This document shows positions 21,894-25,600 of a DNA stretch of 64,000 nt, piece by piece. The stretch's first letter is position 1, and each line of letters opens with the position of its first letter. The stretch comes from Escherichia coli (lineage in GTDB: Bacteria; Pseudomonadota; Gammaproteobacteria; Enterobacterales; Enterobacteriaceae), in assembly GCF_003018255.1 (NCBI RefSeq), contig NZ_CP027440.1; one strand, 5' to 3'. Position numbers and translations under genes: made by a program. The notes beneath the pieces are model-generated. The model searched no databases and was not told the origin of the DNA. It saw only the letters and a list, made by a program, of their open reading frames with translations.

Positions 21894-22877
21894 TTACCTT
21901 CCCGCTCTCCAGGCAACATCCCGTAGCGCCGATCGCGCAGCCTCGCTGATACCACCTAACTGAAAAAATCCGTGGATAACGCCAAGGTAGCGTTGGCAGG
22001 TGCATTGCACTCCTTGCCCTGTCATGCGGTGATACAACGCTTCACCTTCATCGCAAAGTGGGTCGTATTCAGCGGTAATGATATGTACAGGTGGCAAGCC
22101 ATTGAAATCATCGCGCCAAAGAGGGCTGGCTTCAGGATGCCTGCGTTCAATGCCTGGCAGGTACATCTCAAAGCCGCTCAGTAAAGTGTCGCGTGTGATG
22201 ATGTAATCGTGACCATTGCGTATGTAGCTTTCGAAATGCGCAGTCGCATCAAGCATGGGATAAATTAAGATGAGTTGTGCTGGTTGCCACTCGCCAGCAC
22301 GCTTCAATCGCAAAGCAGTTACCAGCGCCAGATGCCCTCCCGCACTGTCACCGGCAAGAGTTATTCGTTGTTTATCAACGCCGAGTCGTTCGGCGTGTTG
22401 CCGGACTAATTCTGCACCTCGTTGTGCATCATCATGGGCGGCGGGGAAAGTATGTTCCGGTGCCAGCCGATACTGGACGGCAATAATCCGACATTGCCCG
22501 TAATAGGCTAACTGGCGCAGCTGGTTGTCGTGAGTTGCGAACCCGCCGCTAACAAAACAGCCACCGTAGTAATAAATTATCGTCGGGAGTAATGTCGGGG
22601 CATTCAGCGGTGACACTATTCGTAAGGTCATCCCTTCAAGTTCGATAGTCTGAATATCTACCCGCGTTTCTGTCTCACCCGCAAGGACAGCGCTGGCGAT
22701 ATAGCCCTCTCTGCGCTGCGTAATACTTTGTTGGCGCGATGAGGGGCGACCCGCAGCGATAAACTCTTCGACTAACTCTGCAATTCCTTTTTCCAGTGCC
22801 ATAGTAGAACTCATTTTGCTGTATGAATGTACAGTTTTATACACCCGTTTTTGCTGGATGGATACAGGGAAATTCAC
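21894..22877 (-). CDS. Alpha/beta-hydrolase, hormone-sensitive-lipase (Aes-like) family carboxylesterase, up to 327 aa
   Basis: GDSAGG nucleophile-elbow motif; ORF starts at a GTG (22877), first in-frame ATG at about 22814. Confidence 0.75.
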   Translation of the reverse strand: MNFPVSIQQKRVYKTVHSYSKMSSTMALEKGIAELVEEFIAAGRPSSRQQSITQRREGYIASAVLAGETETRVDIQTIELEGMTLRIVSPLNAPTLLPTIIYYYGGCFVSGGFATHDNQLRQLAYYGQCRIIAVQYRLAPEHTFPAAHDDAQRGAELVRQHAERLGVDKQRITLAGDSAGGHLALVTALRLKRAGEWQPAQLILIYPMLDATAHFESYIRNGHDYIITRDTLLSGFEMYLPGIERRHPEASPLWRDDFNGLPPVHIITAEYDPLCDEGEALYHRMTGQGVQCTCQRYLGVIHGFFQLGGISEAARSALRDVAWRAGR

Positions 22878-22976
22878 GGGCGTGAAAAATCTGGAAAGCG
22901 CCTCGCAAATGTAAAGACAAACCCGGCAGAGACGTGGTTTTGCTGGAGCACTATCAGTAAGCTAGTGGTTTCAAGG

Positions 22977-22993
22977 GTACGTCAATGACGTAC
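22977..22993. promoter_or_regulatory. Perfect 17-bp palindrome (gtacgtcaatgacgtac) upstream of the toxin-antitoxin pair; candidate operator
   Basis: Read directly; lies between the divergent esterase gene and the toxin gene, upstream of a TATAAT at 23024-23029. Confidence 0.4.
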
Positions 22994-23030
22994 AAAAAGG
23001 ATTGTTACTCTAAGCCAATGGCGTATAATT

Positions 23031-23342
23031 ATGCTCTTCATCGAAACGGAAATTTTTACTGAAGATGTTCAAAAACTGCTGACCGACGATGAATTCAGTC
23101 GTTTTCAGTTTTTCCTGGCCTTGAATCCTGACTATGGTGAGGTAATACCTGAAACTGGTGGGTTAAGAAAGGTTCGATGGGTGTCAGGAGGAAAGGGGAA
23201 ACGTGCTGGTGTCAGGGTTATTTACTTTCATCAGGTTAAACATTATGAGATCAGATTACTGCTTATTTATCGTAAGGGTATTAAAGATGATCTGTCTCCC
23301 CAGGAAAAAGCAATGCTCCGGTTGTTAAATACGAGGTGGTAA
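23031..23342 (+). CDS. RelE/ParE-superfamily (HigB-like) type II toxin, 103 aa
   Basis: Small basic protein (MLFIETEIFTEDVQKLL...) immediately followed, with no gap, by an XRE-family HTH gene. Confidence 0.6.
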   Translation: MLFIETEIFTEDVQKLLTDDEFSRFQFFLALNPDYGEVIPETGGLRKVRWVSGGKGKRAGVRVIYFHQVKHYEIRLLLIYRKGIKDDLSPQEKAMLRLLNTRW

Positions 23343-23633
23343 ATGGATAAGGCACTTTTTGAGCGGTTGACTCACAGCATGGCCCAGATGAATGAAATTA
23401 TTGAAGGAACGCGACAGCCTTCGCGGACTTTTGAAGTTGATGCTATGAAAATCAAAGAAATACGCCGCGCTTCAGGGTTGTCACAATCTAAATTTGCCGA
23501 TCTTATTTCTGTAAGCGTAGACACGTTGCGTAACTGGGAGCAGGGGCGACGTTCACCGACCGGGCCTGCAAAGGCTTTGCTGCGAGCGATTGCCAATGAT
23601 CCGCAACATGTGCTGCAAGCACTTAACCGTTAG
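23343..23633 (+). CDS. XRE-family HTH antitoxin (HigA-like), 96 aa
   Basis: HTH (IRRASGLSQSKFADLISVSVDTLRNWEQG); start codon abuts the toxin stop (tggTAAATGg). Confidence 0.6.
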   Translation: MDKALFERLTHSMAQMNEIIEGTRQPSRTFEVDAMKIKEIRRASGLSQSKFADLISVSVDTLRNWEQGRRSPTGPAKALLRAIANDPQHVLQALNR

Positions 23634-24237
23634 AGGCATGGTTATGCCATACAGAAAGCACCAGCATTCAGAACTCCTGTGAAAGCGGCGTAGTGCCACC
23701 TGCTCAGGAGTTTTGCTATGACCCGTAATCGTGCTGACCGTTGCCACCCTATGATGCGATTAAAAAAACTCATCGTCGCGCCGATGATTGACGTCAATGC
23801 TATCGGATGATACCGGGGGTGTTCCGGAAGGAATTCCTTGTTTCCCGAACTGTTACCAACAAAATTATAACGATAAGCAAGTAAAGACCGGTTGGTGGCA
23901 GTACTGACCGGTCTGTGATGGATGATTAATTTCACCTTAAATCCTGGTGCTGTTAGGATGCTGACATTTTTCGGCTACACCATTCAGATTATGCAAATAA
24001 AGATCCAATCAAAAGATAAATATCCCTGAATATAATATATTTATAGCACCCATATCTCATCCTGGGCGATAACCCAACCATTTTTGATTAACAAATGAAA
24101 CAACTGCAACGTTCTTATTATTTCTGGAAAACGTCTCGCAAAAACAAAACAGCATGCAAAAATCCGCTTTTTTTAAATGATTTTTCGGCGTAATTTTCGC
24201 ACATACATTAATGAGTAATATATGTAAGGTATTGGTA

Positions 24238-24456
24238 ATGGCGATGAATACGGTTTTTCTTCATTTATCAGAAGAGGCAATTAAACGGCTGAACAAGCTT
24301 AGGGGCTGGCGTAAGGTTTCACGATCTGCAATTTTACGCGAAGCGGTTGAGCAATATCTGGAGCGGCAGCAATTTCCGGTGCGTAAAGCAAAGGGTGGCA
24401 GGCAAAGGGGGGAGACAGTAGTTGTTGATGATCAGTGTAAGGAGCATAAGGAATGA
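24238..24456 (+). CDS. yiiE: Ribbon-helix-helix (CopG-like) small regulator, 72 aa
   Basis: ORF 24211..24456 with start at internal Met (MAMNTVFLHLSEEAIKRLNKLRGW...); name from recollection of K-12. Confidence 0.55.
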   Translation: MAMNTVFLHLSEEAIKRLNKLRGWRKVSRSAILREAVEQYLERQQFPVRKAKGGRQRGETVVVDDQCKEHKE

Positions 24457-24670
24457 CAAAAAATTTATTATTCTTGAATATAAAAACCAGATGCCCTTAT
24501 TCTGGTATTAATACAAAGCTGTTTTACTTGAACTTATAATAACTGCAACTGTTACATCATATCTGGAAAACGCCTCGCGAAATACGAGAGATTTTGCGGG
24601 AATAGCAGGTGTCGTCATACCCTATGAACTGTAATCCGGGCGACCAGCGCCACCCGGAAAACGTCAGAGA

Positions 24671-25600
24671 TTACTCCCCTTCACCCGGAAACAGGAACGG
24701 GTTGATGGAACTACGGGCATAGCCTTCTTGCTCCATTCGCGCGTCCAGTACCAGAGAGGCGAGGTCATCTGCCACGGCTTCAACTTTCGGTTCTTTTTCC
24801 TGATAAAGAATCTTCAGGTAAGTGCCGCAGTCATCGCAGCTTTCGGCTTTAATCGCGGCCTGTTCGTCATCCAGCGACCAGTAATGCAGTTTGCCGCTTT
24901 GTTCACAGTTGCTGCATTTTACGCGTACTACGTGCCATTCAGTTTCACACAGGTTGCAGTGCAGGTAACGCAGCCCCTGAGTGGTGCCAATTTGCACCAT
25001 GCTGGACACCGGCATAGAACCACAAACCGGGCAATATTGACGTTGTTCGCCATATTCCGCACGCGCTTTGCCGGGGATCAGATTGGCCATCTGCGCCCAG
25101 TAGAGCGACAGTGCAGCCCAGATAAACGGCGCTTTATCGCTGCTGACGGACGAGAAATCAGAGGCAAACAGTGCGCTGGCCATATCTTCCAGCTCCTGAG
25201 TCGATGCCTTCTCCAGATTCTCAATCACTGCCAGCGCCGGGCCGCTCATTTCAGGTTTCAGCTCAGCAATCAGCGCCATCAGCAGCTTTTGCCAGTGCTT
25301 ATCACGCGGCAGAACGTGAATATCCAGCGGGGGCTTGCCCTGTGCGCTGGCTTCTTTAATGCGCGCGGTCAGATCCATCTCCAGCGGATGGTCGTACAGC
25401 ACCACTTCCTGGGCGTGGGCGATAAGCGCAGCAAAGCGCAGGTAATCACCCAGCGGATTATTTTCTGCCAGCTCGCGCAGACGCTCGGCGCGGCGGTTGT
25501 ATAAATTCTTGAGCCGAGGGAACAATAACGGCGGAATCATATCCGCCGTACGTTTCTCGCTCGAACCCAGCTCATCTTGCGGGATTATGCGAATACTCAT
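24671..25600 (-). CDS. fdhE: Formate dehydrogenase accessory protein FdhE, 309 aa
   Basis: CxxC cysteine clusters ([31 protein letters not shown]). Confidence 0.93.

What the first reader, a model, noticed from the sequence alone, without database searches (positions are those of the whole stretch)
24095..24610. Imperfect direct repeat flanking yiiE, and a 28-codon ORF overlapping its stop
A roughly 45-nt motif occurs upstream (aactgcaacgttcttattatttctggaaaacgtctcgcaaaa, about 24110-24152) and again downstream (aactgcaactgttacatcatatctggaaaacgcctcgcgaaa, about 24541-24582) of yiiE. This is consistent with a duplicated promoter/operator region of tandem small-regulator genes, of which the second copy (yiiF in K-12) seems absent or degenerate here. 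A 28-codon ORF (MTKNLLFLNIKTRCPYSGINTKLFYLNL) begins overlapping the yiiE stop with a good upstream AAGGAG.
Basis: partly seen in the sequence, partly recalled or inferred. Interest (0 to 1): 0.35.

Follow-up and report, generated by a model that had tools for sequence, protein, structure and literature searches.

The report
Decayed toxin-antitoxin pair with CRP-S sites
The two repeats flanking yiiE are the upstream control regions of a tandemly duplicated toxin-antitoxin cassette whose second copy was deleted in this strain; their conserved core matches a known competence-linked (Sxy-dependent) CRP binding site, and the small ORF is a dead toxin-gene remnant, so the locus is explained and fairly ordinary.

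Summary
A 45-nt direct repeat (24099-24143 and 24538-24582, 78% identical) flanks yiiE, and a 28-codon ORF (24453-24539) overlaps the yiiE stop.

The repeats are the 5' ends of two paralogous cassettes, each made of an upstream site, a ribbon-helix-helix antitoxin and a PIN (VapC) toxin. Fifty-seven of 5,426 E. coli genomes still carry yiiE-yiiF-vapC. Twenty-nine loci from Citrobacter, Klebsiella, Salmonella diarizonae and other enteric genera carry a single yiiF-vapC pair next to fdhE.

In the window, a 657-bp deletion between CGC(A/G)AAA microhomologies removed the proximal promoter, yiiF and about 85% of vapC. At least 538 genomes share this junction.

The 28-codon ORF is a collapsed relic of yiiE's former vapC partner. 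Its length is 28, 19 or 7 codons depending on strain, so it is not a conserved gene.

The conserved 22-nt core of the repeat reads, on the other strand, TTTTGCGA-N6-TTCCAGA. This matches the published E. coli CRP-S motif (TGCGA-N6-TTCCA) exactly and nearly equals the validated sxy-promoter site. A third copy lies at 22889-22910. A sigma-54 promoter is rejected.

This is a new member of a known kind and of modest interest.

The parts
22889..22910 (+). CRP-S site copy 0 (ATCTGGAAAGCGCCTCGCAAAT; on the - strand the core is TGCGA-GGCGCT-TTCCA at 22892-22907). It lies between the LexA-box hydrolase promoter and the higB-like/nadS pair.
   Evidence: It occupies the same position relative to the hydrolase start and LexA box as the site upstream of yiiF in other genera.
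24099..24143 (+). Repeat copy 1 (45 nt). Its 3' 22 nt (24122-24143) are a perfect CRP-S site (core 24125-24140, - strand TGCGA-GACGTT-TTCCA). The 5' 24 nt (AACAACTGCAAC...) occur only in Escherichia.
24191..24196 (+). Candidate -10 hexamer TAATTT of the CRP-S-dependent promoter. It would place the site centre (24132.5) near -70, a class I position. This is inferred.
   Evidence: It aligns with the conserved 'gtgTAnnTTG' element of the outgroup alignment. The class I distance is expected for CRP-S promoters (PMC6728893; PMC1635313). No TSS data were obtained.
24238..24456 (+). yiiE, a 72-aa ribbon-helix-helix (CopG/RHH_1) orphan antitoxin paralogue of YiiF.
   Evidence: Pfam RHH_1 E = 1e-11. 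It is 39-42% identical to YiiF. In 8 alleles, codons 1-52 show 7 codons with synonymous-only variation and 1 with amino-acid variation, whereas codons 53-72 show 3 and 7.
24453..24537 (+). It keeps ATGACAAAAA (vapC ATGGCAAAAA) and CCAGATGCCCTTATTCTGG...CTTGAACT (vapC CCAGATGCCATTATTCTGG...TTTGAACT, coding PDAIILATAQIYGFEL).
   Evidence: Local alignment to the vapC 3' part gives z = 8.2-8.8, with 0 of 1000 shuffles reaching the score. ORF length is 28, 19 or 7 codons in different strains. No Pfam hit.
24538..24582 (+). Repeat copy 2 (45 nt), the orphaned upstream region of the deleted yiiF. Its CRP-S core at 24564-24579 reads CGCGA-GGCGTT-TTCCA on the - strand, because the T4 position was changed by the deletion junction.
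24576..24582 (+). Deletion junction CGCGAAA, the microhomology between CGCAAAA (end of the CRP-S site) and CGCGAAA (vapC codons T-R-N). 657 bp are missing relative to strain PK12.
   Evidence: The junction is present in at least 538 of 5,426 genomes.
24578..24634 (+). Last 18 codons plus stop of vapC (RNTRDFAGIAGVVIPYEL*). No start codon remains.
   Evidence: tblastn against PK12 VapC; alignment.
24636..24657 (.). Hairpin CCGGGCGACCAGCGCCACCCGG between the vapC remnant and the convergent fdhE (24671-25600, - strand). It is the conserved right edge of the cassette slot.

Best explanation
The repeat marks two paralogous copies of one type II toxin-antitoxin cassette. Each cassette consists of an upstream CRP-S site, a promoter/operator, an RHH antitoxin and a PIN toxin.

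The ancestral enterobacterial state is a single yiiF-vapC pair convergent with fdhE. In Escherichia the unit was tandemly duplicated, giving yiiE-(vapC') followed by yiiF-vapC.

In this genome, unit 1 keeps its CRP-S site and yiiE. The yiiE DNA-binding domain is under purifying selection. Its toxin gene has collapsed to about 85 nt, which by accident of A/T-run lengths reads as a 28-codon ORF.

Unit 2 was removed by a 657-bp deletion between the 7-nt microhomologies CGCAAAA (the 3' edge of the CRP-S site) and CGCGAAA (inside vapC). Only the 45-nt upstream segment and the last 18 codons of vapC remain.

The conserved 22-nt core is a CRP-S site. cAMP-CRP together with the competence co-activator Sxy/TfoX would bind it and activate a distal promoter from a class I position of about -70. 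A proximal inverted repeat, ATATAC-N5-GTATAT, overlaps TGATATACT in the yiiF unit and is degenerate in yiiE; it would serve antitoxin autorepression. E. coli hicAB has this two-promoter layout.

Shown here: the repeat, the paralogy, the deletion, the relic, the conservation and the exact motif match. Inferred: CRP-Sxy binding, promoter positions and the autorepression site.
For: Structure and history:
- Strain PK12 has yiiE, an RHH gene and a VapC gene (PIN, E = 4e-19) in a row.
- Unit 1 and unit 2 align end to end (z = 52).
- The window's junction maps to PK12 positions 1844-1850 and 2501-2507.
- Allele counts among 5,426 genomes: 57 with intact vapC, at least 538 with the window-type junction, and 3,415 with the K-12 type, yiiF plus a REP element.
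- 29 loci from other genera carry one yiiF-vapC pair next to fdhE. The yiiE type occurs only in Escherichia.

Relic ORF.

Footprint: two conserved islands lie upstream of yiiF in the outgroups, while the flanks vary.

CRP-S identity:
- The published E. coli motif is T4G5C6G7A8-N6-T15T16C17C18A19. It is non-palindromic and works in either orientation (PMC6728893).
- The core's reverse complement is TGCGA-N6-TTCCA. It is perfect at 22892-22907 and 24125-24140 and in 24 of 29 outgroup loci that were retrieved by protein, not by motif.
- The second half-site has G6, as stated for all Enterobacteriaceae CRP-S sites (PMC1635313).
- The validated sxy-promoter site, TTTCGGAAAGAGCCTCGCAAAT, is nearly identical and has the same orientation.
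- The same motif precedes prlF (perfect match), rayT/yafM and chpS. yafM and chpSB are reported as Sxy-induced (PMC5581495; PMC11951105).
- hicAB has a distal CRP-S promoter and a proximal antitoxin-repressed promoter (PMC11594946).
Against: - No binding or expression data for yiiE or yiiF were obtained. The primary Sxy-regulon paper (Sinha et al. 2009) is not in the library, so I could not check whether yiiE/yiiF are listed there.
- No TSS data were accessible, so the -70 placement rests on a weak TAnnTT hexamer.
- The perfect 10-specified-base core is expected about 0.2 times per 64 kb by chance. Each site alone is therefore weak evidence; the argument rests on conservation, the flanks and the recurrence.
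- K-12 higBA and hicAB showed no core with 1 mismatch or fewer in my scan, so the simple pattern does not recover all reported Sxy-controlled TA loci.
- The 24 nt at the 5' end of the repeat (AACTGCAAC...) remain unexplained.
Confidence: 0.8

Rival explanations
1. The repeated core is the operator at which the RHH proteins YiiE/YiiF repress their own transcription.
For: RHH antitoxins normally autoregulate. The motif lies upstream of both genes. Loose 11-nt-spaced sub-repeats, CTGGAAAG and CTCGCAAAAG, can be read in it.
Against: The same 21-22-nt sequence stands before genes with no YiiE/YiiF relative: sxy, prlF, rayT, dinG, an SRAP gene and a relBE-like pair. It matches the CRP-S motif exactly. 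A better operator candidate, the inverted repeat ATATAC-N5-GTATAT overlapping TGATATACT, is conserved next to the yiiF start.
Confidence: 0.08
2. The core is a sigma-54 (-24/-12) promoter, read as TGG-N9-TCGCA, which gives GG-N10-GC spacing.
For: The spacing fits, and the conservation is bipartite with 4 variable central bases.
Against: A weight matrix built from 50 ChIP-seq sites scores the copies at 1.1-5.3 bits, against at least 7.9 for the training sites (median 15.8). Between 188 and 819 17-mers in the window score as well. The matrix does recover the known fdoI site as a positive control. A at position -23 never occurs in the 50 sites. No sigma-54 ChIP-seq or gSELEX site is reported at yiiE/yiiF in K-12, which carries both copies.
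Confidence: 0.01
3. The 28-codon ORF is a genuine small-protein gene translationally coupled to yiiE.
For: An ATGA overlap with the yiiE stop and AAGGAG 8 nt upstream.
Against: Indels in A/T runs change the frame. The ORF is 28 aa in the window, L003 and L006, 19 aa in L001, L004 and L009, and 7 aa in K-12, L002, L007 and L008. The DNA is homologous to the 5' and 3' parts of vapC but is read out of the VapC frame. It has no family match. The Shine-Dalgarno sequence and overlap are what a former toxin gene would leave behind.
Confidence: 0.04
4. The repeated core is a recombination or cassette-boundary site (attC-like) at which toxin-antitoxin cassettes are captured, rather than a transcription-factor site.
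For: One copy precedes each of three successive cassettes in the window (higB-like/nadS, yiiE, yiiF remnant). In other genera, higB-nadS or yiiF-vapC occupy the same slot after the same site. Two independent deletions end at its 3' edge (window and L087).
Against: The yiiE and yiiF units share homology well beyond the core, so this is an ordinary tandem duplication. No second copy lies at the right edge of the cassettes. No recombinase is nearby. The deletions are explained by 7-nt microhomology. The site also precedes non-cassette genes such as sxy itself.
Confidence: 0.05

Closest known systems
E. coli hicAB locus (distal P1 with a CRP-S site activated by Sxy; proximal P2 repressed by HicB)
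   Same: A type II toxin-antitoxin operon with a CRP-S site well upstream and a separate antitoxin-controlled element next to the genes (PMC11594946). The two conserved islands upstream of yiiF-vapC have this layout.
   Different: The protein families differ (RHH antitoxin and PIN toxin, with the antitoxin first). The promoters here are not mapped. In the window the toxin genes are gone and one CRP-S site is orphaned.
CRP-S site of the E. coli sxy (tfoX) promoter
   Same: The sequences are TTTCGGAAAGAGCCTCGCAAAT (sxy) and TTTCTGGAAAACGTCTCGCAAAA (yiiE). Both have the TGCGA half-site proximal to the gene and lie 105-137 nt before the start codon.
   Different: The sxy site has TTCCG as its weak half-site, whereas the yiiE/yiiF sites have the consensus TTCCA. 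The sxy site is experimentally validated; these are not.
VapBC-type toxin-antitoxin pairs with ribbon-helix-helix antitoxins (e.g. FitAB; from my own knowledge)
   Same: An RHH antitoxin gene overlaps a PIN-domain toxin gene (TAATG overlap in PK12), with an inverted repeat at the promoter.
   Different: In the window only relics of the toxin genes remain. Activity and target of this VapC are untested.
Orphan antitoxins / decaying chromosomal TA loci
   Same: The antitoxin is retained after toxin loss. The DNA-binding domain is conserved while the toxin-binding tail drifts. There were several independent toxin-inactivating events.
   Different: Here the decay series is unusually complete within one species: intact, REP-replaced, truncated and deleted.
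Haemophilus influenzae toxTA (competence-regulated TA with a CRP-S promoter)
   Same: A TA operon under CRP-Sxy control (PMC11951105; PMC6957337).
   Different: The proteins are unrelated, the toxin comes first, and the H. influenzae CRP-S site is palindromic.

Membership tests
E. coli-type CRP-S site (Sxy-dependent CRP site) | 22-bp CRP-type site with core T4G5C6G7A8-N6-T15T16C17C18A19 | tested here: met
   The core is perfect at 22892-22907 and 24125-24140. Copy 2 (24564-24579) has CGCGA, where T4 was lost at the deletion junction. The motif is quoted from PMC6728893.
E. coli-type CRP-S site (Sxy-dependent CRP site) | No T6 in either half-site; the half-site without C6 has G6 (Enterobacteriaceae rule) | tested here: met
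   The half-sites are TGCGA (C6) and TGGAA (G6) in all copies. The rule is from PMC1635313.
E. coli-type CRP-S site (Sxy-dependent CRP site) | Conserved at the orthologous promoter across Enterobacteriaceae | tested here: met
   24 of 29 protein-retrieved yiiF-vapC loci have a perfect core 95-117 nt before yiiF, while the flanks vary.
E. coli-type CRP-S site (Sxy-dependent CRP site) | Class I distance (about -62, -72, -83, -93 or -100) from a transcription start | tested here: inconclusive
   No TSS data. A conserved TAnnTT hexamer would put the site near -70, and the proximal TGATATACT would put it near -98.
E. coli-type CRP-S site (Sxy-dependent CRP site) | Transcription activated only with both cAMP-CRP and Sxy | not testable with these tools
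   Needs reporter, ChIP or microarray data. Sinha et al. 2009 is not held.
Type II toxin-antitoxin pair, VapBC type | Adjacent antitoxin and PIN-toxin genes in one operon | tested here: not met
   This is met in PK12 and 29 outgroup loci. It is not met in the window, which holds yiiE plus two toxin relics (24453-24537 and 24578-24634). The window therefore contains remnants of such pairs, not a functional pair.
Type II toxin-antitoxin pair, VapBC type | RHH (or AbrB) DNA-binding antitoxin; PIN-domain toxin | tested here: met
   YiiE RHH_1 E = 1e-11; PK12 YiiF RHH_1 E = 5.6e-6; PK12 VapC PIN E = 4.4e-19.
Type II toxin-antitoxin pair, VapBC type | Toxicity of the PIN protein and its neutralisation by the antitoxin | not testable with these tools
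   Requires expression experiments.
Small-protein gene | Reading frame and length conserved among close relatives | tested here: not met
   28, 19 or 7 codons in 10 E. coli-type loci.
Sigma-54 promoter | TGGCAC-N5-TTGCW scoring in the range of bound sites; sigma-54 occupancy | tested here: not met
   Weight-matrix score of 1.1-5.3 bits against at least 7.9 for bound sites. No ChIP-seq or gSELEX site.

The most novel reading that the evidence does not exclude
CRP-S sites are a general, conserved front end of chromosomal type II toxin-antitoxin cassettes in Enterobacteriaceae. One site precedes each of three successive cassettes in this window. Unrelated pairs (RHH-PIN or HigB-NadS) are exchanged behind the same site in the hydrolase-fdhE slot. 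Perfect or near-perfect sites also precede prlF-yhaV, chpSB and a relBE-like pair. If true, the competence co-activator Sxy would be a common master input to many TA modules, and CRP-S-marked slots would be preferred landing or retention places for them. The site's TCGCAAAA edge would also recurrently seed deletions that remove the cassette.
Probability: 0.2. Interest if true: 0.55.

Novelty: new member of a known kind. Interest (0 to 1): 0.3.

Why it matters
It gives two K-12 'y-genes' a concrete identity. yiiE and yiiF are orphan RHH antitoxins left over from a duplicated VapBC-type module, and each sits behind a consensus Sxy-dependent CRP site.

It adds VapBC-type and PrlF-YhaV cassettes to the few TA loci (hicAB, chpSB, higBA) already linked to the Sxy/CRP-S regulon.

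It also documents, within one species, a full decay series of a TA locus. Among 5,426 genomes, vapC is intact in 1%, REP-replaced in about 63% and cleanly deleted in about 10% or more; the remaining genomes include truncated forms that were not counted separately. This is useful for studies of TA turnover and for annotation, because the 28-codon ORF should not be called as a gene.

None of this overturns current views.

Tried and rejected
- **Sigma-54 promoter.** The spacing fits, but a weight matrix built from 50 ChIP-seq sites and the published ChIP-seq/gSELEX lists rule it out.
- **Simple sigma-70 promoter in the motif, either strand.** No consistent -10 or -35 across contexts (and inspection).
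- **Known RNA family.** None in 23000-25000 at E <= 1.
- **Motif as a relic of VapC C-terminal coding sequence.** tblastn joins 24512-24631 to VapC residues 84-124. Only the last 18 residues are true vapC. The rest (IITATVTSY against IILATAQIY) is weak and absent from the outgroups, so I treat it as chance.
- **A second copy of the motif at the right edge of the cassette (att-like flanks).** E. coli's GGAAAACGTC after vapC is not conserved elsewhere; only a hairpin is.
- **dif/Xer-like reading of GGTGCGCACC near the motif in three viral contigs.** The XerD arm is not conserved. The six viral hits are about what chance predicts for 17 specified bases, by my own rough estimate of the collection's size.
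- **Extension of the duplication upstream of copy 1.** Not significant (z = 1.7).
- **TSS data.** The Cappable-seq supplement holds no positions for this region, and the dRNA-seq paper is not held.
- **Literature.** Nothing links yiiE/yiiF to antitoxins or to this sequence string. Sinha et al. 2009 is not readable here.
Full report

The window is E. coli. The local gene order is an alpha/beta-hydrolase (21894-22802, - strand), a higB-like gene (23031-23342), nadS (23343-23633), yiiE (24238-24456) and the convergent fdhE (24671-25600, - strand).

The repeat finder reports a 45-nt direct repeat at 24099-24143 and 24538-24582, 78% identical and 439 nt apart. The 28-codon ORF is at 24453-24539. 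Its ATG overlaps the yiiE stop, and AAGGAG lies 8 nt upstream. The 21-nt core of the repeat occurs three times in the window at up to 2 mismatches, against 0.01 expected.

**2. What the locus is**

I compared the region with 5,426 complete E. coli genomes.
- In K-12 and many other strains the second repeat copy lies about 113 nt before yiiF, just as the first lies before yiiE.
- In strain PK12 the order is yiiE, a yiiF-type RHH gene, then a 124-aa 'VapC family toxin' whose start overlaps the yiiF stop (TAATG), then fdhE.
- Pfam confirms RHH_1 for YiiE (E = 1e-11) and PK12 YiiF (E = 5.6e-6), and PIN for the toxin (E = 4.4e-19).

yiiF is therefore the antitoxin of a VapBC-type pair. YiiE is its paralogue, at 39-42% protein identity.

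In PK12, the segment 'repeat plus yiiE' aligns end to end with 'repeat plus yiiF', from the first base of the repeat to the stop codon (z = 52 against shuffles). The 45-nt repeat is thus only the best-preserved stretch of a whole-unit tandem duplication.

**3. The ancestral state**

I scanned one genome per species with a YiiE/YiiF alignment and followed with tblastn. This returned 29 loci from Citrobacter, Klebsiella, Salmonella diarizonae, Trabulsiella, Kluyvera, Franconibacter, Kosakonia, Lelliottia and others. Most of the 29 encode a full-length VapC and a few carry a truncated one, and in all but one (L037, Cedecea, no fdhE match) the yiiF-vapC pair lies next to a convergent fdhE.

The yiiE type appears only in Escherichia (E. 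coli and E. whittamii). Two further hits are obvious E. coli contaminants in other assemblies.

The two Escherichia units are about 70% alike in the non-coding stretch between the repeat and the genes. That stretch is not conserved at all between genera. The duplication therefore happened within the Escherichia lineage, and YiiE diverged quickly afterwards.

**4. What happened in this genome**

Relative to PK12 (locus L004), the window lacks 657 bp.
- The left side ends in ...CCTCGC-AAAA (PK12 1844-1850, the 3' edge of repeat copy 2).
- The right side begins at ACGC-GAAATACGAG (PK12 2501-2507, vapC codons T-R-N).
- The window reads CCTCGCGAAATACGAG, so the crossover lies in the shared CGC(A/G)AAA (window 24576-24582).

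What follows (24578-24634) is the last 18 codons plus stop of vapC, then the hairpin shared with fdhE.

The remnant still contains 15 nt that the K-12 allele has lost. The deletion therefore arose from an intact-vapC ancestor, not from the K-12 form.

Allele counts among the 5,426 genomes:
- Intact vapC interior: 57.
- The window's exact junction: at least 538, including UM146 and APEC O2:K1:H7 strains, and also E. whittamii.
- K-12 type, with the vapC interior replaced by a REP/BIME element: 3,415.
- Further alleles truncate vapC after about 30 codons (L005, L006) or delete motif 2 through vapC (L009).

The toxin was thus inactivated at least four separate times. A Klebsiella-like metagenomic contig (L087) carries an independent deletion with almost the same end points...CTCGCAAAA|CCAAAGATTTTGCC. 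The short homology between the site's TCGCAAAA edge and vapC's CGCG(A/T)AATA is therefore a recurrent deletion seed.

**5. The 28-codon ORF**

The 85 nt between the yiiE stop and repeat copy 2 are collinear with the two ends of vapC.
- ATGACAAAAA corresponds to ATGGCAAAAA at the start.
- CCAGATGCCCTTATTCTGG...CTTGAACT corresponds to CCAGATGCCATTATTCTGG...TTTGAACT, which codes PDAIILATAQIYGFEL. The core matches 18 of 19, with z = 8.2-8.8 and 0 of 1000 shuffles reaching the score.

The ORF reads this DNA out of the VapC frame.

Indels in the A/T runs make the ORF 28 codons in the window, L003 and L006. It is 19 codons in L001, L004 and L009, and only 7 in K-12, L002, L007 and L008. It has no family match.

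It is the collapsed relic of yiiE's former toxin gene. The 'good' Shine-Dalgarno sequence and the ATGA overlap are what translational coupling of a toxin gene leaves behind.

**6. What the conserved core is**

Aligning the region upstream of yiiF from 29 loci (E. coli PK12 and K-12 plus 27 loci from other genera) shows two conserved islands in an otherwise variable spacer.
- Island 1 is atTcTGGAAAgcggCTCGCAaAA, at a fixed -116 to -93 from the first ATG.
- Island 2 is gtgTAnnTTG...aTGATATACTGGAGGTATATATG.

Between the two Escherichia units this core is 90-100% identical, while the rest is about 56-67% identical.

I first tested a sigma-54 reading, because the GG-N10-GC spacing fits. A matrix built from 50 ChIP-seq sites scores the copies at only 1.1-5.3 bits, against at least 7.9 for bound sites. 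It recovers the known site inside fdoI as the top hit in the window. No sigma-54 ChIP-seq or gSELEX site is reported at yiiE/yiiF. This reading is rejected.

A metagenome scan for the core gave 61 loci.
- About half are the yiiF locus.
- The same 21 nt also stand before a higB-nadS pair that sits in the very same hydrolase-fdhE slot (L090, L072).
- They stand before a RelB/ParE-like pair (Pfam RelB E = 1e-10).
- They stand directly after garD, before dinG, and before an SRAP gene.
- In K-12 the site after garD lies 133 nt before prlF-yhaV. Another copy lies 70 nt before rayT/yafM.

The motif is therefore a stand-alone site used at many loci and in either orientation.

The reverse complement reads TTTT-TGCGA-GCCGCT-TTCCA-GA. 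The published E. coli CRP-S motif is T4G5C6G7A8-N6-T15T16C17C18A19. It is non-palindromic and orientation-independent (Sinha et al. 2009, as quoted in PMC6728893). This is an exact match. The second half-site (TGGAA) has G6, as stated for all Enterobacteriaceae CRP-S sites (PMC1635313).

Positive control: my scan finds the validated sxy-promoter site (TTTCGGAAAGAGCCTCGCAAAT) 136 nt before the sxy ATG. Its TGCGA half is proximal to the gene, as for yiiE and yiiF.

Supporting reports:
- yafM/rayT and chpSB are reported as Sxy-induced (PMC5581495; PMC11951105), and both carry near-perfect copies.
- The perfect core is present in 24 of the 29 outgroup loci, which were retrieved by protein and not by motif.

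**7. How it most likely works**

Shown: the sequence, its conservation and its match to the motif.

Inferred:
- cAMP-CRP with Sxy/TfoX binds the site and activates a distal promoter. CRP-S promoters work by a class I mechanism at class I distances.
- The conserved TAnnTT of Island 2 (TAATTT at 24191-24196 for yiiE) would put the site centre near -70.
- The inverted repeat ATATAC-N5-GTATAT overlaps TGATATACT next to yiiF. It is the likely antitoxin operator and proximal promoter.

This two-part layout is what is described for E. coli hicAB, which has a distal CRP-S promoter P1 and a proximal HicB-repressed P2 (PMC11594946).

The window therefore holds three sites.
- 22889-22910 is perfect. It lies in the ancestral position beside the LexA-box hydrolase promoter and now faces higB-like/nadS.
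- 24122-24143 is perfect and faces yiiE.
- 24561-24582 lost its T4 to the deletion junction. It has no promoter or gene left, so it is a stranded site.

yiiE itself looks functional. In 8 alleles, codons 1-52 (the RHH domain) show 7 codons with only synonymous variation and 1 with an amino-acid change. Codons 53-72, the tail that in antitoxins binds the toxin, show 3 and 7.

**8. Comparison with what is known**

The site is filed as a CRP-S site on sequence criteria (three features met, one inconclusive, one untestable). The locus is filed as the remnant of VapBC-type pairs. It is not a functional pair, because the toxin genes are gone.

The library holds no paper linking yiiE/yiiF to antitoxins or to this sequence. 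I could not read Sinha et al. 2009, which may already list them.

I therefore rate the finding as a new member of a known kind. It is of modest interest: it explains two K-12 y-genes, adds TA families to the Sxy-linked set, and gives a clean decay series. It does not challenge current understanding.

**9. Limits**

- There is no expression, binding or TSS evidence.
- The simple core pattern does not recover K-12 higBA or hicAB sites at 1 mismatch or fewer.
- The 5' 24 nt of the repeat (AACTGCAAC...) and a 34-nt resemblance to the vapC end at 23716-23749 remain unexplained.

Noticed in passing
window 22819-22834 (with hydrolase start at 22802, - strand): CTGTATGAATGTACAG, a LexA-box-like sequence, sits between the alpha/beta-hydrolase start codon and CRP-S copy 0. 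The same box is conserved at this position in Citrobacter, Klebsiella and Salmonella loci. This suggests an SOS-regulated esterase gene divergent from the TA slot.
   Followed up: partly
window 22977-23633; metagenome loci L090, L072: The higB-like/nadS pair has a perfect inverted repeat GTACGTCA-A-TGACGTAC (22977-22993) and TATAAT (23024-23029). In L090 this pair occupies exactly the hydrolase-CRP-S-X-fdhE slot that yiiF-vapC fills elsewhere, i.e. a cassette exchange behind the same site; in L072 it follows the same hydrolase and CRP-S site, but the contig ends before fdhE.
   Followed up: partly
metagenome locus L087 (also L053, L055, L075, L084): L087 has an independent deletion joining the CRP-S edge (CTCGCAAAA) to the vapC 3' end (CCAAAGATTTTGCC), almost the same end points as in the window. 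The other loci show further independent ways of losing yiiF-vapC.
   Followed up: partly
L042 (K-12 NC_000913.3 4079000-4080300): In K-12 the vapC interior is replaced by a REP/BIME element, leaving only its start (ATGGGAAAAA) and last ~20 codons. The proximal TGATATACT/inverted repeat before yiiF is mutated to TGATATTGG...ATATTT, so orphan yiiF also seems to be losing its own promoter/operator.
   Followed up: partly
window 26079 (-) and 4808 (-): The best sigma-54 matrix hits in the window are CTGGCGCGAATTCTGCA inside fdoI (the published intragenic site IS47) and TTGGCACAGTTTTCGCT (glnAp2-like).
   Followed up: no
window 23716-23749: A 34-nt stretch is 74% identical to the vapC stop/terminator region at 24622-24655 (E = 0.012 in a very small search space). 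It may be a further relic or chance.
   Followed up: partly
L110 6862-6877, L111 22558-22573, L115 3326-3341 (K-12): Perfect or one-mismatch CRP-S cores lie 133 nt before prlF-yhaV (directly after the garD stop), 70 nt before rayT/yafM (directly after a REP pair) and about 115 nt before chpS.
   Followed up: partly
L008 (NZ_ABFU01000111.1) and L010 (UQCR01000230.1): Contigs labelled Bacillus coahuilensis and uncultured Robinsoniella carry E. coli yiiE-yiiF (YiiE protein match 96% and 85% identity). This is almost certainly assembly contamination.
   Followed up: no
L003 (NZ_CM129039.1, the closest genome to the window): An IS1 element is inserted 14-23 nt downstream of CRP-S copy 1. It separates the site from yiiE in that strain.
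   Followed up: no
viral contigs L044-L046; metagenome loci L052, L066 and 10 more: A common enterobacterial island segment carries the same 21-nt core about 170-200 nt upstream of, and divergent from, an SOS-response-associated peptidase (YedK-like) gene. The core is preceded by the palindrome GGTGCGCACC and followed by GGGGCA repeats. Its function is unknown.
   Followed up: partly
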